A stretch of DNA of 64,000 nucleotides from Perna viridis. Lineage: Eukaryota. The notes beneath the pieces are model-generated. The model worked only from the letters and a program-made list of their open reading frames with translations, was not told where the DNA came from and ran no database searches. The stretch covers positions 3,906,001-3,970,000 of the forward strand of contig CM074522.1 in NCBI GenBank assembly GCA_037379345.1, in the 5' to 3' direction. Positions 5,635-42,082 of this stretch are shown in pieces. The stretch's first letter is position 1. Every line of letters begins with the position of its first letter. The position numbers and the translations under genes were made by a program.

Positions 5635-8600
5635 ATGATACTTGTACACGCAGCTTACTTTCTAGTTTTGTTCCATTTGAGCAATCACTTTCTGATCCCC
5701 GAGCTCCAAAATGTGCATATCTATGTTAGTCCGTCCGGATCTGATAGCTTTACCGGGTAAGGAAATTATAATGAAGTTTATTAAAAACAAGATTATTCTT
5801 CATGATTTTGCTGATATATTATTTTTTTTTTTACAATGTTTCGACTGCATATTTACAGTTGGTTCTATTTTCTTTTATAATTGGCATCAAATAGCAAAAA
5901 TAGAAATAAAAAAAACTAGAAAAAATTGTGAATAATCCTTACTGAGGGATATGTCCCGCTCTTTACCCCAGTCCCAAGGACCCTTACCCCAGTCCCAGGT
6001 AATATAAACTCAAACTGTATGTTTATGTCGCTTCAAATCGAAATAGAATCTTTGGTATTAAGTAATATAAAGCTTCTATTTAATTATCAAGTGGTTGTTA
6101 TAAGTAGTTGCACATAAAACTTTAACGAAAACGATTTGGACGGACAAACGGGTGGAGAGAGGGATATAATTCAAGTAATTCAATGAAAATATCTTACTTG
6201 CAGCACAAATATACATCAACCTTTGAAAACCTTGCACAAAGCCATTCAGAGGGTGTCTGATGCTGATATTCAAAATAAAAGTAAGTCAAGATTAATGACA
6301 TCAAAATTAATTAAGTTAATTATGTTAAGCTGCTTAACAAGTGCTACATGAGCTTGAAGAAAGTTTTTTTTTCTATAAACGATTCATACAGTCAGTAAAA
6401 TACGTTTTGTTTGAGTTCACTTTAAAAAGATTCTCTTGTTGAATGAAGCACACAATTTTAATAAAGTCCTGATACAAATTGAAGATTATGCATCTTACCA
6501 TACTAAAAAACAAAAACAAATAAAAATGAACAAACACCAAAAGACTAAGACATTTGACAACGAAAACTACGGAATTCTGCGAATTATCACGGTAATGAAA
6601 ACTATTCATTGGATACATGAAAGTTGTTTTTGTTTAAATAAAGACGTATGGATTGAACTGATGGAAGGCTACCATGACCTTGGTTCGACTTTGGTTATTA
6701 ATCACAGAAATGACTACAGACGTATCACTATCAGATCGTATCAAAACCAGAAAGTCCATGTTGTAAGTATTATCAAGGTTATAGACATCCCGAAAGGCGA
6801 TATGTATTGTTTTTTTATACTGTACTTAACCTTTTAACGACTTCTTGCACTCGTAATTTCTGTACTTAATATTCGCCTATGATTTGCATAAATATGTAGT
6901 TATACGCCACGTAATGCTGCAGATCATCGCCGTGTTTCCCGCCATAGCGTCATAGTTCTAACTTCATACGAGATAAAAATGTACTTCTTAAGTATCATAC
7001 ACGTGTGTTCTGCGTGTGATTCTTGCTTTCAGGTACTGGGAGTCGTTAAAAACTACCTACATGTATATAGATCATTTACATTAGCACGGCCCCGATATTT
7101 ACGAATATTCATTGCTGGTTGCTTAATATGGTTCCTAAACTGGTTCACTGATCAATATCATAAGCGACCCCAAAGATCGCTACAACGTACCTCTTTTAAA
7201 ACATATCACACACAATTGTGTCTATGCTTTTTTTTTGTTTTTTTTTGTTTTTATTTTTTTGTTTGTTTTTTTGTTGTTGTTGTATTAGAACGTGAAGTTT
7301 ACATCAAAAGATAAAATGATCGGTTAGCATTGGATTTATGTAATATTAACCAGTTTCCGATTCAGACACAGGATTTCGTTACAATTAACTATAAAGGTCA
7401 TATATATTATCAGGACCTCGATATCTATATATAGCTATTTTCAGCTGTTTAATCTTGTTCCGGATGATTGAAAACATTCGGTTCATCACGTTACGAAAGA
7501 GTACGCAATCATATCAAGGGAAACAAGATTTTAGCAGAAGTTACCCGATTTTAGAGCGTATCGCATTTGTACCATTTCGGATGTTGAAAGCTAAACCAAA
7601 ATCAGTGACAGTGAATATTTGGCAAATAGCGACTTTGAAGACTTCAGTCTTTGATTTATCTTTGGTAATGAGAACAAACGTAGAAAACTTTGATATCTAA
7701 GTTTGATACATTTAAAAAAAAAAATTTCTACGGCCACGCCGCAAATAAAATATGGATTCTCATTAAGAATATTAAAAATATTTCTAAACTTTTCTATAAC
7801 AAGTCAATATCCTTTTATTGTCAATACAATTAAACTACGTGTCGTCATGAAACGATATTCCTACACAAAATATTGTACGCGGATGTGAATCGTGTAATTC
7901 TTGATTATGTTGCAGACTGGAGGAAGGCGAATTCCATCAAACCTGTTTCGACGAGTTTCTGATCAAGCTATACTCAACAAACTTTCGAGTTTAGGAAGAA
8001 ATCATGTATGTTTTTTGTAATTATACTTGTTTAAACAATTTTAAGGGATTGTCGTTCGAAACGAAAATTGACATATGATAAGTCAATGTGGCAATTGTTA
8101 AAATTAAACAGGAGATGATTCATGCATGTCAAAAACACACCAAACAATTCTATTTCGGAAACGTTACAGACCACGTGCATTGTAATCACTCTTAGTTTGT
8201 ATTGAGATAAAAAGATATATAGAGTGTGTGTGTGCAAGACTTAATGTTCTTGATTTGTATTTTATATTGTTTGATACTTTAATTTAATACATATCGTTTG
8301 AAATGTTTAAAACATTGAAGTTTTTTAATCATTTAGTACATTTAATAACACAACCAATAAAAAATGAGAAAATTCGAAGATGGGTTAAATGGCCACAGCG
8401 CCGAAATATAAATGTTTGCGTGGACAGAATATGGCAAGATGATTTTGCAAACCATCGAACAAGTATATGACAAGTCCGTGCTATCTAGATCCTGACATTT
8501 CGATTTTAATGTATCTAACAAAGTCTGAGTAAATGTACAAATATTAATTGGTAAAATGCGTTTTTCTTGTAGATCTTGCAAGTAAACTTAACAGAGGCTG

Positions 8601-8831
8601 GAATAACAGATCTTGGTAAACTGGTACCATATGGGAAGTACATCTTACGACAGGCTCCACTGGAAATATTTGAAAATGGATTTCCCTTGACACTATCACG
8701 ATGGCCAAATTATGTCAGTTTATATTAGTATACTGTAAAATTAGAAAACAGGGTTTAAATAAAGCGAATCCTTAGATATCATGCCATGTTTACTGTACAA
8801 GTTTAAAGTATTGCTTTGAAGAAAACAACAA

Positions 8832-8864
<33 letters not shown>

Positions 8865-11800
8865 AATGCAAGACTATGTACGTAATTTTATACGATTATA
8901 CCTGCTTTCATTATCTGTGGTGGTACAACTTTTACGTCAAGAATGTATCACCGCTTTTCAGATAGTCAGCATCATACTTGTAAGGCAAGTCATAAGCATG
9001 GTTCAATCTGCTGTAATTCAAAGTAAATCGTCCAGTTTTGTACGTATCATATTCAATTCTTTCAATGCATCCCTTTACAACACATTGGTAGGTCCAGTGA
9101 TTTGCTCCGGGGATCAGGCCCCTATTGTTGAAAATCTTTTTTTTTTATTTTCGAGCAATTGTGGTAATATTTTGTCATTGGTTAGAACACGCCTTTTTTC
9201 TGGTACCTAAATCTTTTGCTCATCAATATCTCATTATTTCAGGGCTTCATCAACATAACCAATGTTCCATCAGGGGAAAGATATAGTACGGTGTTCCAAT
9301 ATAACAGTGATAGACCAAATAGATGGTCTAATCAATCAGATATATGGGTGTACGGTTACTGGTATGGACATAAGTGTAGTTTGTAAACATTATAGAAATA
9401 TTAGATACATGCTGTAATTTTGCTATTCAGTGACTTTGTTTATACTGTCTTAAGGCATAGCATACTGTATCCCAAATAACAATTGCAAAATGTACTTCTG
9501 TTTTACTGTATGATATTTCTCTCTTCCGTTTGGATCAGGAGCAAAGGGTAGCTGGTCTATTGTACATCAATATATTTGGATAAGTTTTACAAATACCAGA
9601 TAAAAAAGTTTTATTTTAGGAGGCAATTAAATTTTAACGTTCTCTATATTGATAATTATATGTGCTACGCCTGGTAGTCGATTCGTCAACAGACATTTTC
9701 GGTAATATCATGATGTCACAGTAGTTAAGAAAGAGCTTTGAAATAATATGTGCGTTACACAGTGAATGCATAAGCAGATGATTAGATTTAAGTCTGACTT
9801 ATATCCATGAATAGTTTATTGTCGTGATGAAACGATTTTTTTTTCAGTTGTATTAAATTCTCAATTATTTTACTAGGTATCAAAGCTGGGCGGATAAGGC
9901 TGTTCCAGTAAAATCATTAGACCCACAGACGAAAACAATATCTCTTGCACAACCTACTCATTTTGGACTACGTGCTGGTATGTTTACACCTAATGTGCGG
10001 TTAAATAGCAATCCACTTTAGACTTATGCAGAATGTGATTCATGAATGGAATGCACTCATTTTACTCTTAATTTGTAAATACATCTTATTCACTTTTAAT
10101 ATCTTTTTAACTGGACGATTTCTTATGCAAAACAAATGCTTAATGCATAAATGCAATATTATATGCCTCAAATTACATGTGTACGTCGAAAACAATATGT
10201 GATATTTTTAAGAACGAATTAAATAAATTTAAGAAATTTGAAATAAGAATGATTTTTGATATTGTCAGCATCAAAATCGAAAGTAATTATTATTCTGTTA
10301 ATCGATTTCTCATACAAGTCGTATTTCTAACCAGAGAATGATCAAAATCACTCAGAGAAGCATATATTTAGATTTGTATTAAAATCGGTATCATTCTATT
10401 TCAAATTGCTATAATTCTAATTTTTCATGATATTTAGGCGGATAGGTACACATGTTCTTTACCATTTATTCAATTACACGGGACCGATGGTGGTTGGAAA
10501 TTTAATATACCTCTCCGATGTCTAGATCAATACCATTGTCTTTGACGACTTTTCAAACAAAATTTCGCTTCTTCATCCGTTATCTCAAAACAATAATTTA
10601 AGTAAAATATTTGTGATATACATGTGCATTACATCTCGATGATGCATGGACAGTTTTAACGGTTAAAATCTATACAGATTCGCAAAGATACAAGGTCTTT
10701 TATTCATTAGAGAACTAAATATTCCGCTTTTACAAATTCTTTATATTTTCTTTAGGACAAACCCATCCAGGCGGGGGATATTTCAGATTCATTAATGTCT
10801 TAGATGAAATAGACGAACCAGTAAGGACAGTGCTTGTTACTATTATTAGCTCACCTGACCTAATGTGCCATATGAGCTATTGCCATCACTTGGCGTCCGT
10901 CGTCGTAAACAATTTTTCAAATATCTTCTTCACAACTTAACCAATTAGAACCAAACGTAGTATGAATGTTCCTTAAGGTTTGGGAATTTTGATCCGTTGA
11001 AGAACATGGCTGCCATTACAGAAAAAAAACGAACATAGGGGTCAGACATAAGTTAAACACATACTTGTATATCTCCAAAACCGTTAGGTGTAGTCAAATT
11101 CAGGCACATGTAAAAATATACTGCATGATGAAATCTATCTGTGGTCAAATTTTTGTGTTAATCTGTAAAGCCATGTTGGATTTCATGCCCTTTTTCAACA
11201 TTTTTCGCTATTTTTGGTGTTTCTTTCAAAAATCTTTTCTAATAAGAACCAAACTTGGTGTGAATTTTCCTGGAGTGTTATGCATAGAAATGATGTAGGA
11301 TTTCGGATCCGTTACTAAAAATACAAGATAGGGGTCAGACAGACGTTTCTCACATATATTTCAAAAACCTTAGCCAAATTCTGACAGAGTAAAATGTACA
11401 ACACGGTGAGATCTATCAGTCATCTAATCGTCATGTAAATCCGTTAAACCATGTAAAAATTGGAGTTATTGCCCTTTTTCGCATTTTTTCGCTGTTTTTA
11501 ATGTTATTTCATTTTAAAATCCTCTCCTCTGATACATGTACCAGACCAGTTAGAACCAGATTTGGTATTAATTTTCCTTAGGGCATTCTTCATAGAACTA
11601 AGGTGCCGATTTTTTTATATCTTATCTCATGATTGTCGTTGTTAAAAATAAAACATGGGGACATACACAAGTTTTTTTGCGCATATATCTCCAAATTTTG
11701 TCTTCGGAAGGAGGCTGTTCTTGTTCATTATTTCCTTTACACACACTGATTACAAATGCTATGAATTCAGTTAAATCCAAATCATCGGTTTTTAAAGAAG

Positions 11801-14800
11801 ACAACACTAAGCACAGAATAAATCAATGCATTCAATGTTAAACATAATATGAAAAGAGATATGGTTTAATGACATTCACCCATCCTTTGTCTACTGGCAG
11901 TCATAGTTTGTTCAAATGCAATGCTGTGTATTTTAGAAGAGAATATTTTGGTCTATTTCATTTTTACTGATTTACAGGGGGAATATTTTATCGACAGACA
12001 GACAAGTATACTTTACCTTTGGCCAGCTTTCTCTAAAGGATTCTTCTCCAGCAATGATTATATCTATGGTTCAGTGATTGATACCTGTATACAGTAAGTA
12101 TATGTATACGTAAACCTCTACTCGGGGAGCGTATTTCACCGACAGACGGACAGACATGAAACCTCGCCCAAATGATTGATACCTATGCATATACACAGTA
12201 GATAATTGCAATGTATGTTTACGTTAAACTGGGCTGATTCAGATTGCAGTACAAATTTTAACTGCGAATATTATTCAGACTGTGGAGATAACTGATAAAA
12301 ACATTGAAAATATAACCCGATGAAATAATCATTGAATACATGAATCATGATATACAAAACAATATCTACTTAATGAAAGCATATACTTGTAAAGCGCAAT
12401 ATACTGTGACAATGAAAGTTTTGTTGTAATAAGAGGTCACTAGTCATACCTGGATAGAATACAATTATATCCATAAGTGCGATGTGTTATCATGTTCTTG
12501 CTAAATGTATATTTTTGTGTTTTCATGTCCATATTACGTATTTTGTCCAGGCTTACGAGATGTACATGCAATGTTGTGTTCGAAAATTTTATTTTGGAGG
12601 CCTGCAGACATTTTGGTATTCAAGCTCAAGATGCCGTTAACATTACTATTAATAGTATGGAAATTCGTAATACAGGTACATGTAGATTCTGGAATATAGT
12701 TTTTTAGACTACCGCCTTAATATAGGATGCATCTATTACTTTAGATTCTCTTTCAATATTTTAGACCCATTTTTCTTATATTGTTTGTTTGTTTGTTGGG
12801 GCTTAACGTCCGAGCAGCAATATTTCAACTATATTCAGACGATGAACATGAAATTGATGATAAAATGAACATGAAATGATGATGAAATGAAAAAGGGATG
12901 GGACACAAGGACAATGGGGTCGACAAATTTTGATTGCCACTGGCAATAGCGAGAGGTGGGTAGGGTCGGGCAATTTAGCCTCCTGTGGCGGAGCCCTATG
13001 GTTCCTACTCCGGGAGAATACCACAGTAGGGTTCTTTAACGTGCACGGAACGTGGCATCTTTCCCAACACGGTGCACCACTATGGTTTGCGGTCAGGTTT
13101 TCCGTATTATAGCCAGACAACCTCAGCATGTAACACGCCAGGGGTACCCCATTCCACCACCTGGGGCACACCTCCCAGTTGCTCTGTGGTCGAATTGATA
13201 ATACAATTTTGCAATTATACTACTAAAGTAGGAAACTTAGTTAACAAATTATTAGAAGACATTCCACGTTGGTTTGATAGAATTTATTTTGATTTCGATC
13301 TCCCTGTGTATTTGGTTTCAATCCTGCAATTTAGAGGTTACTCCTATGAAACACGTGTACCGGAATTTTGTAATTTTTCTCTGGGTGGTACTTTGTATTT
13401 TGATCTGCAACGTTGATTTTATTTAGGATGCCTTAAAATATGCGCTGAAAATTCGAAATCTAACGAATTTGTACATGGATCAAAAATGTATTTTCAATCG
13501 TTTTCTTTCCAGGGTCATACAATATCTATTGTAGAAAAGACTGTAGAAACTTTGCTGTAACCAAGAGTTATCTTCATGATGGCGACGGTGGTATAACTCT
13601 TCAAGGTAAACATTATAACTACATAAAACGGATGCTCTGACTTGCTGTTCGTTCGTCCGTCCCCAGCTCTTATTCATAACTCCTCTGAACAGCAAAATTG
13701 AATTTGATGAAAGAGCAATCAAGGGAACTAAGGTTCTAGTGGAAATCAAAAGAATGTAACCCAGGAACAAAGACCAAACATGGAAAACAGACATACAAAA
13801 CAAAGAACATTTAGTAATGAAACTTTCGTATATTGTGTACTTTCTATTTATTTCCACCTGAATGATTTTAAGAGATTTTCTATATGGCTTCTGGAGAAGA
13901 GTAAGGAGAGTATCACGTACATGTAATGGTCTTTGCTCACATTTTTTTCAGTCTTTCTAAAATCATGATAAATTTTTTTTGTAACCAATACATTTTGGAA
14001 AGCCCGTGAGACACCTCTCAAGTGTAATCATTTTTTTTACATTTCCTTCTTCATAAATGACAAATCTGATATATACAATTCACTAGTTATTTCATTTGAA
14101 TGGGAGTGATATACTATTTGCAGGAGGTGATCGACCGACTCTTATGTCATCCCATAATGTCATATTTGACAACGAAATTTCCTTCTTTAGTCGTGTGACG
14201 TCATCAGATGCTAACGCTATCACATTAGACGGTGTTGGTGGGCAGATTCAGCACAATATTATATATAGAGGACAATATACTGCTATACGGTGGACAGTAA
14301 GGAAACTAAACCCTTTTTGGGGCTTTAAAAACAGGATTTCAGTTCACAAGGTTCAAAGTATATTTAAACTGGAGTAAGAAAATTTTTTAATTGTCCGTTT
14401 CAGATAGTTTCTGCGATTCTTCCGGATTCGGTTTAGACATTTTTCAGTGAAAAATAAATATTGTAATGTGCAATACAAAATGAAAACATATATTTTGAAA
14501 TTATGATATGCTGCTTGTTTCAATAAAATTAGGAGGGGAGGATTGTCATGCAGTACCCATAATGCATATGAAATGAAACAAAACATGATAAAATCAATCA
14601 CTTATGAGATTAGTCTGTCAAATATTTGAGGAACTAAATGTTATAATACTAATATCATTTGGTATCCTTGCAGGGAAACAACCACAAGATACAGTACAAT
14701 AATGTGTTTGAGATATGTATGAACTCCAGTGACTGTGGTGCCATACATTCTGGGAGAGACTGGACTGCAGTAAGTTTCTAACATTTTATATTCATAGTAT

Positions 14801-17800
14801 GTATAGTTCACCAAAGTAAAATGAAAGAAAAATGTAATTTAATTATCAGTCCAATTTCGCTTATGTCTAATACAAAATTTAACTAAATTAGTTTAGTATT
14901 TCTCTATGGTGATCTTGCGTGCTCTTTTCGATTTCGGCTGGTTGATTGCTATATTCTCTCAAGAATTGTGCCTATTGAGAAGGTTCGGCTGGTTGATTGC
15001 TATATTCTCTCATGAATTGTTCCTATTGAGAAGGTTCGGCTTGTTGATTGCTATATTCTCTCATGAATTGTTCCTATTGAGAAGGTTCGGCTTGTTGATT
15101 GCTATATTCTCTCATGAATTGTTCCTATTGAGAAGGTTCGGCTTGTTGATTGCTATATTCTCTCATGAGTTGTTCCTATTGAGAAGGTTTTAAACTTCCA
15201 GCAATTGCACTTTATTCATACATGTCATGATTAGAGACAAAAAATTACGTCATGACTCCTTTATCAGATGGCCGGTTTAGGAGTTAATTACATCGTTGAG
15301 TTTAATTGAAATTTTGCTGATTGTATACGTCGCACTAGAAACAAATTTTGATAAAATATTTTGTTCTTTTGTTTGAAGGTTAAGTATGTTAACTTTTGTA
15401 TTTCTTACTAAGAGAGGAACGGTAATTCGTTACAACCATATCCATCATAATCTCCAGTATTACTACGGGGCAGATGTCCGAGGGGTGATGTTAGATGACC
15501 AATATTCTAGTGTGTTAGTGGAGAAAAACGTCTTCTATGACGTAAGTTTGTTAAATATGATTATTGCTATTTTGTTTAAAATCCCTTTGATCTTGCTATA
15601 CGATACTTTTCCAGCTCATGCCAGTCGAGTGAGAATGAAAGTTATTGCTAGTTTCTATGACCTCGCATGACATACAAGCAACAGCGTAGAAATATTTGAC
15701 GACCCAAAATGACCGTCTCTTTGTTTACTGCGTATGAAATAATGGCTAAGTTTTGGCAATATTGTTTATTCTACAATGGAAAATGATTAAATACAGTAAC
15801 TTACTCGATTACAATGAATATATCTCAAAATTATTCCACAAACTTTAAACGCGACCTTCATAGTTAACCGATTTGTTTTTTTTCAAATGTGTATCACAGC
15901 TGCACAACAAACGTGACATCACGTAGCACGTCGCCGAGAAATAGTATCGAAAGGAAATTTTGCAGCCTTATAAAACTTACATATTTTGGTCAGGACTATT
16001 GAAAATAAAAGAAAACAGCGATAAACAGATTATAAAATATTTTTTCAACTCGCGGCAAAGTCGCTCGACGAGATGAGCATGAGATATTCCCTCTCGTTGA
16101 AAAAATATTAAATAATCTAATATTATCACATTATAAGTAACCATGTCTATACAGCAAATTTGAAATAAAAAACACAACACAACAAGTAATTATCAGTTGC
16201 TTTTGGATTTTGAACTAGCTTTAAGAAAAAAACGAGTACTCTTTCGAGACAAATTTAAAGCTTGTTGTCTTTTATTCTATTTGCGCTTGTATTCAGTATC
16301 AATCTCAAGAGTTCAATCCGAACTCAACCGATCTTTATAGTAAGTTTTATTGTTGTATTTTCTCATTACTGTCCCAAGTTTAAGGGGGTTGAGCATTCAC
16401 AAATATGTTTAACCGCGCCGCATACGTTGTGTTCCTGTGCTAAGCCAGGGAACTCTATAATCCATTGGTTGTTTTTTTATGTTCATTGTTGTTCGTTTAT
16501 ATTTACGTTTTTTTTCTGTAAATTAGTTTGAGTTTCGTTTTTTATTGATATTTTTACTTCATTTATTTTGAGGTCTTTTACATCTTGCTTTATGGTATGG
16601 GTTTTGCCCATCATTGAAGACCGTGTGGTGACCTGTAGAAGTTTAATTGTTTGGTTTTGGAAGTTGATTGTCTCATTGACAATTATACCACATCTTCTAT
16701 TTTTATAAGGTTAACAATGTCATCACTGTATCAATTTGAAAAAAAAATCCATGTTGCAGTTTGTTATACTTTCGTTTTGTTTTCATATGTTTAGTTGTTA
16801 ATAATTTCTTCTTGGCATTGTCTTTCTTTTTTCTTAATTATAAATTGCTTGTTTTAGCCCTTTAAATGTATTAATAGTCCTTCATAAATAGCTGTACAAT
16901 ACAGCAGTACGACAGTCCAGTTATTAGAACGTGCATTATATGGTTCAATATCAAATAAATCGTGTTTGTGCATGACAACCATAAAGCCTATATTTATTTC
17001 AGAATGCTGGACATCTGAACATTGGTGGAGGGAGAGACAACATAGTACGAAACAATGTCTTCTTCAATTCAACAAAATTTTCCATCCAAGTGGATGCCAG
17101 AGGCTCAGCTCATAGAAACGATCGATCATTAATGAACATTTTAAATGTAAGACCAAAATATGTATAATGATTAAATCAGTTTAAATTGTTTCCTGAGAAG
17201 ATCTGTTACATATACAATGTACATTTGTTTTACGTGTACAAAAACTACAGTTTTTAGTAGGAATTTCCTATCGGGCTTATAAGTTGGAATTGAGTTTGCA
17301 GGCGTCATTTACAGAAACAGTAAGAACGGGTTAAATATGATATTAATTTGTTCTCACATGTTGCAACGGGAATAAAATGCATTTACTTGGTGGATATTTT
17401 TTTGCAATTGTGTGGTAGACTTATTGCATATTCTAGATAGAGTGAAAAAAGTAAAATAGTCGAGCTGCCATATTGTTCGAGGATTATAAATTAACCAAAT
17501 GGTTTAAAACAAATGTTGGACCTGTTTGTGATAATTGAACCAAAGCTTGACCATAATTAAAATAATAGTAAATAAGCCTATTATGTTGATTTGTTTTAAT
17601 GTACCTTCATATTTTACAGCGTTTACCGTACAAAAATAAACTCTGGGCTTCAAAATTTCCTAAACTTGTGAATATCTTAAATGAACACCCAGAAGAACCA
17701 AAAGGTATGTACATATCATTGTGTTATATTTACAAAAGACACAATCATTCCTAACAAGAATTCAAGACAAACAAGATGATTGTTAATTACACTAACAAGG

Positions 17801-19955
17801 TCATGAAAAATACTTAAAAAGTCTTCTTTTGCCTTTGTTTTATTTTAAAAAGAAGTCAGGAAATTTATTTTATTTTTTTCACTTAAAAATTGTGACTTTC
17901 GTATTGCTGTATTTTCATAGCATTAGTTGAGCATGTGTTTTTTTATAAACTTCAAATCACCCCAATTAAAGCAAAGTTTTATAAACTATTTCAAACGTCT
18001 ACAGCAACAATTTGCACTTGATTTTAGATACTCATTAAAGAAAAAGGTGCTTTAAGGGCTCTATAATCGACCTAAAATGAACTGAAAATAAACTGTGAAA
18101 AGTGTTAATTACGAATTTGGAGACTTGAACCCATAACAACCAAGAGACTTCCTAAAATTTTCGTAATAATAGACCTGTTTGATGTTCACGACAATTCAGA
18201 TATTCAGTTCACTTGGCACTTTTTTCTCTTTCTTGTAATATTCCTGGCAATGAACTTGTGTCCTCAACCTAAGGAACAACTTCATATTTAGTGGAAACTT
18301 TCATAATTTCATGGTTTCATATGTAAAAATATACAAACGTTTCTTGAGTGTGGACTCAGTTTTCTTCACGTAAATTATTCCCAGTGACAGTAAGTGCTTA
18401 AGCCGCAAAACATTTGTTTTCCGAATATTTATTTATTATACTGTCTTTTAAATCATTTCATTTTATTACAACAAAGCTTGTATTTTCGGTCCATATTCAC
18501 ATCCTAATGCCCCTACACCTTTGTTAGATTAACAGGCTATTTTTTTCAATATCAATACAGGGAACCAAATTTACAACAACATATTCTACAACTCTGGTTC
18601 TCAGTATGTTGTCAAATGGGATCCACATAAACCAGAATGGTTCGACGTGCATACAAACATTATTGTATGTATAATTCTTATTTCCCAATACAACTTGACC
18701 GTAGGAGGACAACTAGCTCGTCCATCTGTATCATTGAAACGATTTTTTTTTCGTTCAAACTTGAATGACAATAATCGTGTAGGTAGCCATGCCTTGATTT
18801 GCTGTTCATTTCCATTAAATTTCTCCCCAACTGTATCCAATTACTACACATATCATTCAATATTATACTTTTTTGTACGTGATGCTACATTGTATGTCTA
18901 AACGGTAGTCAGTCATTTGTATTGCACAATATAATTTTTCTGTTTTACTTAAGTGACGAATTAACCAGATATGCAACTGGAGGGAACCCATTGTTTGGTC
19001 ATAATGCAAATATTTTTGTTATTTTTATATGATCTGACATGAGTTAAAATTCTGATGTCAGACCATTTAAACCAGTTAAATTACCTATGCTCTTACACAG
19101 TAAACTTTACCTTACCTCCTCAACAAAACACAGTCCCGAACAGAATGTTGACCTTAGGTGAAGTGTTAACCAAGTATTTATTGCATTATGAAAACGGAAT
19201 TACTGAATTATGTAAGTTCTGTTTTGAAGGCAAATACGACAAAAGATTTTTTCTACCCGAAACTTCCTTTTGCCGACTTCAGACCAAGATGTCACTTGTC
19301 ATCATTTGTCAAAAGTAATAACTTTAATGTACCGATTCTACCGAGTCAAATTGGGCCACGATATCATGTTGGACCTCTATTTGTAAGTAAGTATTTTCAG
19401 AATATACAGTCACGTGTCTCGTGGTATTCAATTGATGCAGCATTGGTTTACAGTTGTTATAGCAACAGAAAAAAAACTCGCTCAGCTATAAAGTGTAGTT
19501 TTCAAAGGAGTAAAATCTACTTTTTATATTTAATAATTAGTTTGGATATTATTAAGGTCCTAAATTATCGCACGTCATATTTCAATCTAAGAATTTAAGA
19601 GGAATTAAATTGTACCTTGTCATTTTTATGTTTCCTAAAGCCAAGTTATGTAGTTTGAGGCAGAACATTTAAAATTTTGATATCGAAAAGGGTATTATAC
19701 ATTGGCGTAGTGTACAATACAGAACCGAATAACTTACATTTCAAGCATTGGTGCTTGTTTTAATTGTAAACACTTCTCATATATTTCCATTTATGATTAA
19801 AAACTAATTTTCTGATTTGCAAAAGTAACATGAAAACAAAACAAATATGAAAAATAAACAAATATGCAGTAAATTTATTTACTTTTATAGCTCCAAAACC
19901 ATCGTGGCTTATTGGTGGGAATAATGAAAAGCAGCCAGCTCCAGACATTTGCTAA
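5635..19955 (+). CDS. Secreted right-handed parallel beta-helix protein of bacterial type (GH141-like / pectin-lyase fold), 19 exons, ~706 aa
   Basis: Exons 5635-5756, 6204-6280, 6644-6762, 7916-8005, 8573-8713, 9243-9361, 9877-9977, 10756-10820, 11978-12093, 12551-12675, 13513-13605, 14124-14296, 14674-14769, 15413-15541, 17003-17146, 17620-17704, 18561-18664, 19230-19386, 19891-19955. All are GT-AG, phases match, total 2121 nt with no internal stop. Motifs: IYVSPSGSDS..G..PLKTL, TGG, LSRWPN, WVYGYWYQSWAD, LDEIDEPGEYFID, GGDRPTL, DCGAIHSGRDWT, GTVIRYNHIH, GVMLDD, IGGGRDNIVRNNVF, DARG. AATAAA overlaps the stop. The start codon and the last exon are the least certain parts. Confidence 0.85.
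8834..8863 (+). repeat. (CA)n microsatellite
   Basis: Direct reading. Confidence 0.9.
10845..11720 (+). mobile_element. Helentron-associated (HINE/DINE-like) element with ~300-bp internal repeats
   Basis: Head TTATTAGCTCACCTG..TGAGCTATTGCCATCACTTGGCGTCCGTCGTCGT. Internal units begin (T)AGAACCA(A/G)A..TGAAT.TTCCT at about 10946, 11244 and 11551. Similar older elements at about 2238-2640 and 21355-21720. Confidence 0.55.
12781..13188 (-). mobile_element. Family A element, 5'-truncated, in an intron of the beta-helix gene
   Basis: Near-identical to the other copies from the (CAAA)n tail to CCCAGTTGCTCTGTG; the head is missing. Confidence 0.85.
14933..15190 (+). repeat. Intronic minisatellite, 51-bp unit, about 5 copies
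   Basis: Unit TTCGGCT(G/T)GTTGATTGCTATATTCTCTCATGAATTGTTCCTATTGAGAAGG. Confidence 0.9.
16290..16707 (+). mobile_element. Family C repeat with a degenerate twister-like module (about 16380-16456) and 3' tail
   Basis: GGGGGTTGAGCATTCACAAATATGTTTAACCGCGCC..TTCCTGTGCTAAGCCAGG, then the tail ..TTGTCTCATTGACAATTATACCACATCTTCT. Related pieces at about 26150-26600(-), 24375-24560(-), 38915-39050(-) and 49620-49680(+). Confidence 0.65.
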
Positions 19956-22802: not shown

Positions 22803-23176
22803 CGATTGATTGATTGATTGATTGATTGTTGGGTTTTAACGCCCGAGCAGCAATATTTCAGCTATATTCAGGCGGTGAACATGAAATGGATGATAAAATG
22901 AACATGAAATGATGATGATGATGAAATGGAAAAAAAGGATGGGACACAAGGATAATAGGGTTGACAAATTATGATTGCCACTAGAAAAAGGGACGGATGG
23001 GTAGGGTCGGGCAATGTAGCCTCCTGTGGTGGAACGAAAAGCTTCCTACTATCGAATACCACAGCAGAGTTCTTTAACGTGCGAGGAACGTGGCATCTTT
23101 CCCAACACGGTGCACCACTATGGTTTGCGGTTAGGTTTTCCATATTATAGCCTGACAACCCCAGCATGTAGCACGC
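22803..23176 (-). mobile_element. Family A element, 5'-truncated
   Basis: (CAAT)n tail and body homologous to the other copies; possible short TSD GTCGA. Confidence 0.85.
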
Positions 23177-29500: not shown

Positions 29501-30203
29501 TCCAATTCATGCTCATCGTCTGAATGTAGCTGAAATATTGCTGCTCGGACGTTAAACCCCAACAATCAATCAATCAATCAATCAATCTTACGGAATGATT
29601 CATTCAATCGGAAGTTTATAACAATACACAAAGACATCCAAGTTCGAATATGTATCTCGTATTAATTATGCAGATCTTTTAGTCTTTGCACGAATATTTT
29701 ACCGCATCCTTCACTAAATTGTAATACTCGACATTAATTATTTGCAAATATATTTTTCTTCGATAGGGAACTTTAGTTCACAGACGACTTCGGTAGCATT
29801 TGCAGCATGTCTGACGCATACCATAGACTCTCTTGGGTCTCATCAACTTATTGAATATGATAACGTTATCACAAATGTAGGGAATGCGTATGACGTGAGA
29901 CATGGACATTTCGTATCGCCATTAAAAGGAATATATCTAATAACTGTGACGGCTTATGGTTGGAGTACTGCGTCTTATACTCTTGCATTAGACTTAGTCC
30001 TGAACGGTGAAGGGAAGGCAACACTTTTCGCTGATGGCAGACAACACGAAGAGGACATAACAACTATATCATGGCCTTTTGTATTAGAAGCAGGAGATAT
30101 GATGTGGGTAAGGAACCATGCCGGCTACGAAGGAAAACACATGATGGGATCTCCTATTTGGAACATGAATTCGTTTTCAGGTGTTCTTATTCAAGCATTG
30201 TAA
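23553..30203 (+). CDS. Secreted C1q-domain-containing protein (signal peptide + coiled coil + gC1q); exon 2 has an apparent +1 frameshift
   Basis: Exon 23553-23634 (MAWRVLLVFGFTFLVSAETQQDVFRRL), exon 27535-27700 (coiled coil ..VDSIEAKNSHLTSTVESLQNTIADLKEIL..KRLLTN), exon 29767-30203 (VAFAACL..IEYDNVITNVGNAYDVRHGHFVSPLKGIYLIT..LEAGDMMWV..NSFSGVLI), a typical gC1q domain. Confidence 0.85.
23738..24136. mobile_element. Second copy of the TTAA-flanked MITE, in intron 1 of the C1q gene
   Basis: End-to-end homology with 1663-2067 and the same termini. Confidence 0.75.
25434..25620 (-). mobile_element. Second degenerate Penelope-like RT remnant
   Basis: Nucleotide homology to about 44890-45050 (TATTTATGGCGTTCAAGGAAAT..GAATCAATTGTGAAATATA..CATATGCAGGAGATGAAG). 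Confidence 0.7.
27850..28366 (-). mobile_element. Family A element, full-length copy nested in a family B element
   Basis: Imperfect TSD TGGAGTCCG (27841-27849) / TGGAGTCTG (28371-28379); the flanks join into a family B sequence. Confidence 0.88.
29059..29585 (+). mobile_element. Family A SINE-like non-autonomous retroelement, full-length copy
   Basis: 12-bp TSD TCTTACGGAATG (29047-29058 / 29586-29597). Starts GCCCCGTGCAGG; internal GCACGTTAAAGAACCC (Meta-domain-like); tail GCTGAAATATTGCTGCTCGGACGTTAAACCCCAA followed by (CAAT)n. Confidence 0.9.
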
Positions 30204-39800: not shown

Positions 39801-40063
39801 ATTGCTTTCTTTTTATTTCCGCTAGAACCTTGGTTCCCTTGATTACTCTTAAACAAATGCACAAGCATATAAACTAAAAACAAAATAGTAGGTACTCTAT
39901 TAGTTCTTTTAGTAATCTCCACATGACAATATCAGAACAAACGTAATATAACGACATAGAGACACATAAATGACCAACAGTGGACAATCAGTATGCTGTT
40001 TCGCAGAATCTTAAAATTAAAAAAGCTACACGATGTACATGTACATTGAACATTACAGGTACA

Positions 40064-42082
40064 ATGTCTGATTCAAAGATGAATGGCCGAATAAAAGTGA
40101 CATTTACCGTAATTCTTTTATTACTGTTCAGTGGAATGCTAGGAATTATTGCATGGCAGGTAGAAGAACATCGCAGTAGTAAGACACAGCCGAACAACTA
40201 CCAATCTAGTGCCGAGCTCACACTAGGGGCAATGAAACTTAACAAAGACAATATGTCTGTCAGAATCGTTGATTCGAAATCAACGTCAAACCGACTAACA
40301 GGGAAGCTGTTTGTTAACCGAAGTGTCAACACTACGGGAACAGACTGTGGTAGCGATTCGACCAAAATTTGCATGAACTGGGCTAATGATCGCAATGTTC
40401 AAATCACATACAAGGCGTTCGGAACTGTCGATTGCTATTTCTTCGAGTGGATAACGCTTCGTTGTGAGAGTCAGGTTCTGATGGATTGCTTCGATTTAGC
40501 AGGAGCACACTGGTATGGCGGCTATGAAGACTGGAATCAGTATTGGCCCTTGGAGCAAACCTCGATGAATACAAATGCATTTTTGGCCAATGATTCATAT
40601 CAGAAATTGTTAGGTGGTGTTCAAGAGCGGTATTTTATTAATACCCAAGGGATAGGGTTCAATGTAAGTGACGATGTTCCTCTTTTTCTAAGCATCAACA
40701 AAAGTTCAGATGGCAAAATGTGCTTCACGGCAAAGTACGATAAATATCCGTATACCAATACGCACAGGTCTCCTCCTAAACTAATGTACAAGATATGTAC
40801 GGCAGATAACGTACGGCAAATACATGACTTTATGTCAGCATCTCTCCCGAACCCCTCCGATATTCCCGACAAAGATCTCTTCCGGTACCCTATCTGGTCA
40901 ACTTGGGCACAGTATCATAAAGATATAAATCAATCAACTGTATTGGAATTTGCGTACAATATCTTGAAGTATAAATTCGGACATTCGCAGTTGGAGATTG
41001 ATGACGACTGGACTCCTAAGTATGGAGACATGGACTTTACAGCAAAGAAGTTCGAAAATGCTAGTGACATGATAAAACAACTGAATAAAATGGGTTTCCG
41101 AGTAACCATTTGGGTGCACCCTTTCTTCAACATAGATTCGCAAGCTTTCCTAGAGGCTGGTGTATTGGGTTTCTTGGTCCGACAGTATGATTCCTTGCTT
41201 CCTGCTTTGGTTTCATGGTGGGATGGCAATGCAGCTGGAATTCTAGACGTTTCGAATGAAAATGCAACAACATGGTATTTGAATAAGTTGCGGAATCTAC
41301 GCACTACTTACAATATAAGTTCTTTTAAATTTGATGCTGGTGAATGCAATTGGCTTCCAAACATCTTTGCAAATCCGTTTGACTCTCCAAACTTTTATCC
41401 AACAAAATGGGCAGAATTAGCTTACAATGCTGACAAAAACGTACGACATCAAGAAGTGCGAGTAGGCGTGAACACGCAGAATCTTCCGATATTTGTGCGC
41501 ATGCTTGATAAGGACTCAAATTGGGATTACCGGAATGGACTTAAAACGCTGATTAACACGGCTCTTACATTCGGAATTCTTGGGTATCCGTTTATCTTAC
41601 CGGATATGATAGGTGGAAATGCGTACGAAGGACATATCCCGGAACGAGAATTATTCATTCGGTGGTTAGAAGCGACGGCTCTACTTCCGTCGATGCAGTT
41701 TTCCATCGTCCCTTGGCAGTATGACGAAGAGGTTATAAACATATCAATAAAATTTACCAAGATGCACGAGAAGTATAGTGATTTAATAATTGAACTTGCA
41801 CAAGAGTCGGTCCGTACAGGAGCACCCATAATTCGTCCGATTTGGTGGGTAGCCCCGGATGATGAAGAGGCGCAAGTGATAGATTCCGAATTCTTATTGG
41901 GAAACAACATTTTAGTTGCTCCAGTATTACAGAAGAATGCCCGATCTAGAAATATCTATTTACCTGCAGGGCGATGGAATAGTACGACGAATGGAACCAT
42001 TTTCGATGGACCAATATTGGTTCAAAATTTTCCTGCAGCTTTGGACGAACTACCTGTCTTTGAACGTGTGACGGCAAATTGA
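40064..42082 (+). CDS. MYORG: MYORG-like (myogenesis-regulating glycosidase / KIAA1161-like) GH31 glycosidase, type II membrane protein, single coding exon
   Basis: ORF 39980-42082; the likely ATG is 40064, just after the splice acceptor CATTACAG. N-terminal TM helix (VTFTVILLLLFSGMLGIIAW), HWYGG, PIWSTWA, LEIDDDW, GFRVTIWVHPF, nucleophile KFDAGE, acid/base LPDMIGGN, PIIRPIWW, FLLGNNILVAPV, YLPAGRW. The symbol denotes family likeness, not proven orthology. Confidence 0.92.
   Translation: MSDSKMNGRIKVTFTVILLLLFSGMLGIIAWQVEEHRSSKTQPNNYQSSAELTLGAMKLNKDNMSVRIVDSKSTSNRLTGKLFVNRSVNTTGTDCGSDSTKICMNWANDRNVQITYKAFGTVDCYFFEWITLRCESQVLMDCFDLAGAHWYGGYEDWNQYWPLEQTSMNTNAFLANDSYQKLLGGVQERYFINTQGIGFNVSDDVPLFLSINKSSDGKMCFTAKYDKYPYTNTHRSPPKLMYKICTADNVRQIHDFMSASLPNPSDIPDKDLFRYPIWSTWAQYHKDINQSTVLEFAYNILKYKFGHSQLEIDDDWTPKYGDMDFTAKKFENASDMIKQLNKMGFRVTIWVHPFFNIDSQAFLEAGVLGFLVRQYDSLLPALVSWWDGNAAGILDVSNENATTWYLNKLRNLRTTYNISSFKFDAGECNWLPNIFANPFDSPNFYPTKWAELAYNADKNVRHQEVRVGVNTQNLPIFVRMLDKDSNWDYRNGLKTLINTALTFGILGYPFILPDMIGGNAYEGHIPERELFIRWLEATALLPSMQFSIVPWQYDEEVINISIKFTKMHEKYSDLIIELAQESVRTGAPIIRPIWWVAPDDEEAQVIDSEFLLGNNILVAPVLQKNARSRNIYLPAGRWNSTTNGTIFDGPILVQNFPAALDELPVFERVTAN

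What the first reader, a model, noticed from the sequence alone, without database searches (positions are those of the whole stretch)
5635..19955. Bacterial-type beta-helix CAZyme-like gene with 18 spliceosomal introns
Seen: an intact 19-exon ORF with a signal-like N-terminus, mostly missed by the ORF track. Established: the motif series YVSPxGxD, (A/S)RWPN, LDxPGExYxD, GGDRxTL, DxGAIxxGRDW, LDD and GGGRDN is typical of bacterial polysaccharide-active right-handed beta-helix proteins related to GH141 (fucosidase/xylanase), a type not well characterised in animals. Candidate catalytic acids (D in DCGAI, DD in MLDD) are retained. Inference: an old horizontal acquisition, or a patchily retained ancestral gene, used to digest algal polysaccharide. 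The introns rule out bacterial contamination.
Basis: partly seen in the sequence, partly recalled or inferred. Interest (0 to 1): 0.7.

Follow-up and report, generated by a model that had tools for sequence, protein, structure and literature searches.

The report
Mollusc-wide bacterial-type sugar-cutting enzyme gene
This is a real, spliced mussel gene from a family found across clams, snails and chitons, whose closest relatives outside molluscs are microbial; it is predicted to be a secreted sugar-cutting enzyme and likely helps digest a tough algal polysaccharide, but its substrate is untested.

Summary
The gene is real. Nineteen exons (5635-19955, +) with 18 GT-AG introns give a stop-free 706-aa protein, 81% identical to a Mytilus protein. 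Spliced contigs from four studies confirm the exon 12-19 junctions exactly. The predicted fold matches GH141 BT1002 best (Z 34.7), and two aspartates (D467, D507) sit where the GH141 catalytic pair is expected. It is not a one-off: relatives occur in 12 bivalve genera, 8 gastropod genera and a chiton, form one strongly supported clade, and appear to share intron positions. This genome holds four copies. The next relatives are bacterial (Planctomycetota, Armatimonadota and others, 30-38%), plus Naegleria; no other animal was among the top hits, though a rotifer-rich cluster exists in the Atlas. The tree cannot separate a bacterial gift to early molluscs from an old, patchily kept eukaryotic gene. 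The substrate is unknown: the bacterial fucanase signature is absent and bacterial neighbourhoods are mixed. Best reading: a secreted, probably digestive GH141-like glycosidase of an uncharacterised subfamily, and a testable candidate for the still unclassified molluscan fucoidanases. Ten literature searches found no description.

The parts
5635..5756 (+). exon 1: ATG, hydrophobic signal-like N-terminus, first beta-helix strand
6204..6280 (+). exon 2
6644..6762 (+). exon 3
7916..8005 (+). exon 4 (start of the inserted ancillary region)
8573..8713 (+). exon 5
9243..9361 (+). exon 6 (beta-sandwich insertion)
9877..9977 (+). exon 7 (beta-sandwich insertion)
10756..10820 (+). exon 8
11978..12093 (+). 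exon 9
12551..12675 (+). exon 10 (beta-helix resumes)
13513..13605 (+). exon 11
   Evidence: its end is the loose end before exon 12
14124..14296 (+). exon 12
14674..14769 (+). exon 13
14731..14733 (+). codon of D467, predicted counterpart of BT1002 D523
   Evidence: mapping inferred
15413..15541 (+). exon 14
15494..15496 (+). codon of D507, predicted counterpart of BT1002 D564; invariant in alignment A1
   Evidence: mapping inferred
17003..17146 (+). exon 15
17620..17704 (+). exon 16
18561..18664 (+). exon 17
19230..19386 (+). exon 18
19891..19955 (+). exon 19, coding part to the stop; low-confidence tail in the orthologue's model; no Cys-rich tail module follows

Best explanation
This is an expressed 19-exon mussel gene for a protein predicted to be a secreted GH141-like glycoside hydrolase, which likely cuts a dietary algal polysaccharide in the gut and likely reached the ancestor of molluscs from a microbe. 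Mechanism: the signal-like N-terminus would send the protein out of the cell; a right-handed beta-helix, interrupted by a beta-sandwich insertion as in BT1002, would hold a glycan chain in its groove; D467 and D507, on neighbouring coils, would act as nucleophile and acid/base as proposed for BT1002 D523/D564. The most likely substrate class is a fucose- or other deoxy-sugar-containing, possibly acidic, algal glycan. Shown: gene structure, splicing, family range, conserved aspartates. Predicted: fold. Inferred: secretion, activity (about 0.85), digestive role (about 0.65), fucose glycan (about 0.35), direct bacterial donor (about 0.55).
For: Fold: AlphaFold model of the 81%-identical orthologue P0001, pLDDT 92.8, pTM 0.92; best solved match GH141 BT1002 5MQP by Foldseek (E 2e-19, next family GH120-type XylC 4e-12) and by VIA-align (Z 34.7, rmsd 2.8, 494 aligned over residues 24-692; next entry Z 29.8, 316 aligned). 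Profile search: 9RX2 E 5e-63, 5MQP E 1e-28. Acids: both kept in 55 of 61 mollusc-clade rows that cover both sites (5 of 66 rows lack cover), and in 337 and 336 of 340 non-mollusc rows. D523/D564 are essential in BT1002 (PMC10154630 passages; PMC12786026). Range: 12 bivalve genera, 8 gastropod genera, 1 chiton; 62 of 62 mollusc rows form one clade with no intruder among 403 rows (SH-like 100; 13 short rows dropped), 14 of 14 at SH-aLRT 100 in IQ-TREE. Age of the introns: the 3 paralogues in this genome each have AG..GT segments of the same phase, within 15 nt of the length and in the same order for exons 2-18 (exons 2, 11 and, on C4, 3 score weakly); 23 of 34 ends of long gaps in database gene models lie within 3 aa of a window intron against 18% by chance, including chiton, limpet, Pomacea, Batillaria and Pinctada (indirect). 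Nearest non-molluscs: of 80 best prokaryotic loci 39 Planctomycetota, 14 Armatimonadota, 5 Verrucomicrobiota, 5 Poribacteria. 9 of 117 scanned neighbour ORFs hit glycosidase families above cut-off and 4 hit sulfatases (22 of 139 not scanned, no background control). The window gene lies head to head with a GH9 cellulase gene. Molluscan fucoidanases from Patinopecten yessoensis and Lambis are listed as unclassified (PMC11943901 passages), and that scallop has a family member (P0008). All four GH141s of W. fucanilytica are endo-fucanases.
Against: Identity to BT1002 is only 13-17% and a single-sequence search of PDB finds nothing. Pfam GH141_M stays under its cut-off (18.2 and 13.5 bits against 27; none for P0001). 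None of the three GH141*6 fucanase signatures is present. Bacterial neighbourhoods are not conserved (largest real neighbour clusters in 8 or fewer of 80 loci) and no GH107 or GH168 was named among them. Only 16 of 401 sampled genomes of the phylum of G002 carry it. The family is also in freshwater (Pomacea, Sinanodonta), vent (Gigantopelta) and carnivorous (Babylonia, partial) molluscs, and no heterobranch such as Aplysia was among the hits, so it does not track a brown-algal diet (diets recalled). Six clam-clade rows lack the first Asp at that column. Two raw RNA runs show almost no reads on exon bins (tissue not known), and no tissue was identified for the runs that do hold it. Origin: Naegleria is the weakly supported sister of the molluscs (SH-aLRT 81, long branch), no alternative was rejected, and an Atlas cluster of 314 members is 53% eukaryotic, mostly rotifers.
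Confidence: 0.55

Rival explanations
1. Same enzyme, different history: an old eukaryotic gene (or one passed on from a protist) that most animals lost and molluscs kept.
For: Naegleria P0357 (30% identity) groups with the molluscs in two trees; a rotifer-rich cluster of the same type exists; only 150 of 2584 strong representative hits were listed.
Against: The grouping is unstarred and joins two long branches; trees with bacterial sisters are not rejected (p-AU 0.135, 0.123, 0.0505); in the complete 50%-cluster search every named hit above 365 bits is a mollusc or a bacterium, where a slowly evolving annelid, brachiopod or deuterostome orthologue should have ranked; many separate losses would be needed.
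Confidence: 0.35
2. The enzyme is not for food: it remodels the animal's own glycans (mucus, shell matrix, egg coat) or attacks bacterial capsule or biofilm polysaccharide.
For: Kept in vent, freshwater and carnivorous species; capsule depolymerases and biofilm lyases share the fold; mollusc-specific changes near the acids (Cys after D467 in 57 of 61, Arg five before D507 in 53 of 61, Met in place of the bacterial Tyr in 51 of 61) suggest a shifted specificity.
Against: Copy number is highest in grazers and filter feeders (Littorina, Haliotis, Patella, Mytilus); head-to-head GH9 cellulase neighbour; near absence from two RNA samples fits a tissue-restricted gene. All of this is circumstantial.
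Confidence: 0.2
3. The protein is a polysaccharide lyase, an epimerase or a non-catalytic glycan binder with a beta-helix fold.
For: AlgE epimerases and PL6 lyases score Z 26-30; some clam paralogues have lost the first Asp.
Against: Those matches cover only 270-370 residues against 494 for GH141, which includes the insertion domain; the window protein keeps both aspartates at the GH141 spacing (40 against 41 residues).
Confidence: 0.1

Closest known systems
CAZy GH141, BT1002 of Bacteroides thetaiotaomicron (PDB 5MQP; acts on rhamnogalacturonan II)
   Same: Split beta-helix with inserted beta-sandwich; best structural match (Z 34.7, rmsd 2.8, 494 aligned); two Asp at matching places and spacing.
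   Different: 13-17% identity; animal, secreted-type, 18 introns; different residues around the acids; substrate unknown.
GH141 endo-fucanases Wf141_1/2/4 (CUPP branch GH141*6) and Wf141_3 of Wenyingzhuangia fucanilytica; PDB 9RX2 (named only 'parallel beta-helix repeat protein')
   Same: 9RX2 is the best PDB sequence match of the family profile (E 5e-63) and aligns at both Asp; similar length.
   Different: The GH141*6 signatures are absent from the window protein. Wf141_3, a separate branch, could not be compared because its sequence was not in hand.
Uncharacterised bacterial beta-helix subfamily of Planctomycetota, Armatimonadota, Verrucomicrobiota, Poribacteria (DxGAxYxGRDW / YLDD / GGGRDN)
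   Same: 30-38% identity over about 600 aa, same motifs and acids.
   Different: Molluscs form their own long-stemmed clade; Tyr before the second Asp is replaced by Met; many members carry a mollusc-specific Cys-rich tail; no member has a known activity in what was read here.
Horizontally acquired or patchily distributed CAZymes in animals (e.g. GH13_1 amylases, PMC7003070, search listing only; nematode and beetle cell-wall enzymes, recalled)
   Same: Microbial-type glycosidase, domesticated with introns and duplicated.
   Different: Different enzyme family; acquisition would predate the split of chitons, bivalves and gastropods.

Membership tests
CAZy GH141 | Right-handed parallel beta-helix catalytic domain interrupted by an ancillary beta-sandwich | tested here: met
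   Model of orthologue P0001; 5MQP top, aligned over residues 24-692
CAZy GH141 | Two catalytic aspartates equivalent to BT1002 D523 and D564 | tested here: met
   D467: same Asn-to-Asp spacing of 11 as in 5MQP (stretch shown, realigned by eye; numbering offset of 5 inferred) and 9RX2. D507: 40 residues on (41 in BT1002), aligned with the 9RX2 RxD Asp; the 5MQP sequence at D564 was not displayed. No 3D superposition of side chains was possible.
CAZy GH141 | Pfam GH141_M insertion domain (PF21231) above its curated cut-off | tested here: not met
   18.2 and 13.5 bits against 27, none for P0001; close bacterial relatives also fall short. Hence filed as GH141-like, not as a member.
CAZy GH141 | Assignment by CAZy/dbCAN/CUPP models | not testable with these tools
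   No such library on hand
CAZy GH141 | Glycoside hydrolase activity | not testable with these tools
   Needs an assay
GH141*6 endo-fucanase branch | Signatures HQxWxxxD, DG...NxxxxN and RxD at the second Asp (PMC12786026) | tested here: not met
   None found in the window protein
Beta-helix lyases and epimerases (PL6, PL9, AlgE) | Best structural match and lyase-type catalytic Lys/Arg with Ca site | tested here: inconclusive
   They match the bare helix at lower Z and coverage; their catalytic residues were not mapped
Gene horizontally acquired from bacteria | Integrated in the animal genome (introns, animal neighbours, spliced RNA) | tested here: met
Gene horizontally acquired from bacteria | Nested inside a bacterial clade with strong support, eukaryote monophyly rejected | tested here: inconclusive
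   Naegleria weak sister, no topology rejected
Gene horizontally acquired from bacteria | Absent from sister animal lineages | tested here: inconclusive
   No non-mollusc animal among listed hits, but only 150 of 2584 strong hits were listed and rotifer members exist

The most novel reading that the evidence does not exclude
This family is the missing gene behind the fucoidanase activity long reported from scallop, periwinkle and abalone digestive glands: molluscs took a bacterial GH141-like enzyme before their classes split, gave it 18 introns and a new Cys-rich binding tail, and digest sulfated fucans themselves, a job thought to belong to specialist bacteria.
Probability: 0.25. Interest if true: 0.85.

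Novelty: new variant of a known kind. Interest (0 to 1): 0.62.

Why it matters
GH141 is described as 98% bacterial with a handful of characterised enzymes (PMC10154630, PMC12786026). An intact, duplicated, intron-rich branch across three mollusc classes gives animals a glycosidase type not credited to them in the papers searched here. Fucoidan is treated as a slow-turnover carbon sink broken down by specialist bacteria, while molluscan fucoidanases remain unclassified (PMC11943901); this family offers named genes in the relevant species that can be expressed and assayed. Even if the substrate is another glycan, it would give a first activity to a large uncharacterised bacterial subfamily and an unusually old case of gene acquisition in animals.

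Tried and rejected
Contamination or chance ORF chain: rejected. Pfam on single exons gave only a weak beta-helix hit. No run was on record as RNA in the index; the spliced contigs were found by laying them. The whole-gene lay was swamped by intronic repeats and showed no exon junction. Single-sequence PDB search: nothing. NCBIfam: no family for P0001, P0008 or P0357. Metagenome scans with the mollusc alignment and with the Naegleria protein found no relative; a mixed alignment gave no usable pattern. The treekit AU test on 61 rows did not finish in three runs; a 32-row LG+F+G4 test with fast searches and 5000 replicates (fewer than advised) was used instead. Wf141_3 was sought by short motifs among fetched proteins and 401 sampled genomes and not found; its logo and models are figures that are not held, and they bear on the substrate question. 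Wider neighbourhoods of five loci in four genomes showed no fucoidan cluster. The Cys-rich tail has no Atlas match. Literature: ten searches found no paper on a molluscan GH141-like gene; the library lacks most subscription journals, and genome-paper supplements may list such genes. Earlier scan findings: none returned. No complex prediction was run, as no binding claim is made.
Full report
Observation. The chain of 19 exons from 5635 to 19955 on the + strand translates without a stop into 706 residues; all 18 introns are GT-AG and phases agree. The model is 81% identical over 690 residues to Mytilus trossulus P0001 with two gap positions, so the window is inferred to come from a mytilid mussel. 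Contigs from four runs of four studies skip the introns between exons 12 and 19 at exactly the predicted bases (five junctions in 4 of 4 runs, two in 3 of 4), join exon 11 to 12 as a loose end, and hold about the right number of letters for exons 1-11. Two raw RNA runs of unknown tissue show almost no reads on the exons, so expression is not ubiquitous. Junctions 1/2 to 10/11 rest on the orthologue and contig lengths, not on displayed joints.

What the protein is. Pfam sees only a generic beta-helix in the orthologues; GH141_M is hit below its cut-off. A 105-sequence profile finds PDB 9RX2 (E 5e-63) and GH141 BT1002 (E 1e-28). The AlphaFold model of P0001 (pLDDT 92.8) matches BT1002 best by Foldseek and VIA-align (Z 34.7, rmsd 2.8, 494 residues), including the inserted beta-sandwich that BT1002 has at 109-295 (PMC10154630, passages). 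BT1002 needs D523 and D564. D467 of the window protein lies 11 residues after the conserved Asn, as does the Asp in the 5MQP stretch printed and in 9RX2; with the numbering offset read that Asp is D523. This mapping is my realignment, since HMMER placed the weak stretch one coil earlier. D507 lies 40 residues further (41 in BT1002), is invariant in the alignment and aligns with the RxD Asp of 9RX2. Both are kept in 55 of 61 mollusc-clade rows that cover them; the six exceptions are clam-clade paralogues. The fucanase-branch signatures of PMC12786026 (parts 1-2 of 9 read, plus passages and a supplement search) are absent. I therefore file it as GH141-like and not as a tested member.

Distribution. 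Named relatives come from 12 bivalve genera, 8 gastropod genera and the chiton Liolophura; no cephalopod or heterobranch was listed. In a search of 1.84 billion representatives, 2584 hits had E up to 1e-30 and 150 were listed; names were looked up for 30 proteins in all. The molluscs form one clade without intruders (62 of 403 rows, SH-like 100; SH-aLRT 100 and stem 0.9), broadly split by class with lineage-specific duplications. This genome has three more copies, on C13, C4 and C9, each with segments matching exons 2-18 in phase, length and order. Long gaps in database gene models of chiton, limpet, caenogastropods and pearl oyster end at the window's intron positions far more often than chance (23 of 34 ends against 18%), indirect evidence that the introns are as old as the family. 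35 of 52 long mollusc rows carry a Cys-rich tail of repeats; the window gene and the C4 copy lack it, C13 and C9 have it.

Origin. The next relatives are bacterial at 30-38% identity, mostly Planctomycetota and Armatimonadota. One protist, Naegleria, was found and is the weakly supported, long-branched sister of the molluscs; an AU test on 32 rows rejects neither that tree nor three trees with bacterial sisters. The Atlas holds a 314-member cluster that is about half eukaryotic, mostly rotifers, whose sequences I could not obtain. A transfer from bacteria to stem molluscs is the simplest reading of the animal gap, but a protist donor or an old gene with many losses remains open, and no donor phylum can be named.

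Function. A hydrophobic N-terminus, seven N-glycosylation sequons and a mature mass near 79 kDa fit a secreted enzyme. Neighbours of bacterial relatives include glycosidases of many families (9 of 117 scanned ORFs) and sulfatases (4 of 117), with one GH29 fucosidase, but no conserved cluster. In the window the gene lies head to head, about 2.6 kb apart, with a GH9 cellulase gene. Characterised GH141 enzymes act on rhamnogalacturonan II, xylan and fucoidan, and a 2026 study classes GH141 as endo-fucoidanases (PMC13668718, passages). Fucoidanases from Patinopecten yessoensis and Lambis are listed as unclassified, and activity is cited for Littorina and Haliotis (PMC11943901, passages); three of these four genera have family members here. 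Against a plain fucoidan story stand the missing signatures and the presence in freshwater, vent and carnivorous species. I commit to a secreted two-aspartate glycosidase that digests a dietary algal glycan, with a fucose-containing glycan the leading but minority guess.

Novelty. The proteins are in public databases as uncharacterised or as beta-helix domain proteins. Ten searches of the held literature found no description of a molluscan GH141-like family; other papers named were seen as search listings only. Microbial-type glycosidases in animals are a known kind, so this is a new variant of a known kind. It earns interest 0.62 because it is solid, old and wide, and makes the identity of molluscan fucoidanases directly testable.

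Noticed in passing
window 1-about 3050, minus strand: GH9 cellulase gene (exons at about 2-175 and 654-932 hit PF00759) running off the window start, head to head with the gene studied; its first exons look like a signal and a CBM2-type module (recalled motif, no Pfam hit).
   Followed up: partly
G000:C13 about 22,711,700-22,738,800 (+); C4 about 27,038,400-27,055,800 (-); C9 about 2,158,600-2,194,100 (-): Three paralogues with the same exon pattern; C13 and C9 carry the Cys-rich tail.
   Followed up: partly
P0003 residues 715-957; L087:207-425: About 240-residue tail of three Cys-rich repeats in most mollusc members; no Pfam or Atlas match and found in this genome only on the two paralogues. 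Candidate new carbohydrate-binding module.
   Followed up: partly
window 19368: DNA run X16 shows one base left out near the end of exon 18, at codon 680 of 706; it would alter only the poorly ordered C-terminus. Not seen in the RNA contigs.
   Followed up: partly
P0030, P0031, P0171, P0331, P0332, P0341: Clam-clade paralogues lacking the first Asp at the aligned column (shifted by two in the Mactra rows); possible inactive or altered copies.
   Followed up: no
window 39974-42082 (+): Single-exon GH31 glycosidase gene, 702-aa frame with an N-terminal membrane anchor; MYORG-like by recall.
   Followed up: no
window 29718-30203 (+): C1q-domain exon.
   Followed up: no
window 57896-58752 (+): Two frames that look like pieces of a G-protein-coupled receptor (recalled resemblance; no Pfam hit for the first piece).
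   Followed up: no
window 12781-13189, with copies near 22868, 27873, 29160, 32309: High-copy interspersed repeat in intron 10, abundant in RNA reads.
   Followed up: no
window 14933-15189: 51-bp minisatellite, five copies, in intron 13.
   Followed up: no
L097-L101: Five IMG/VR contigs encode relatives at 29-30% identity; may be phage cargo or host DNA.
   Followed up: no
L005, L043, L131: URO-D-family (MtaA/CmuA-like) genes recur beside bacterial relatives; might point to O-methylated sugars as substrate.
   Followed up: no
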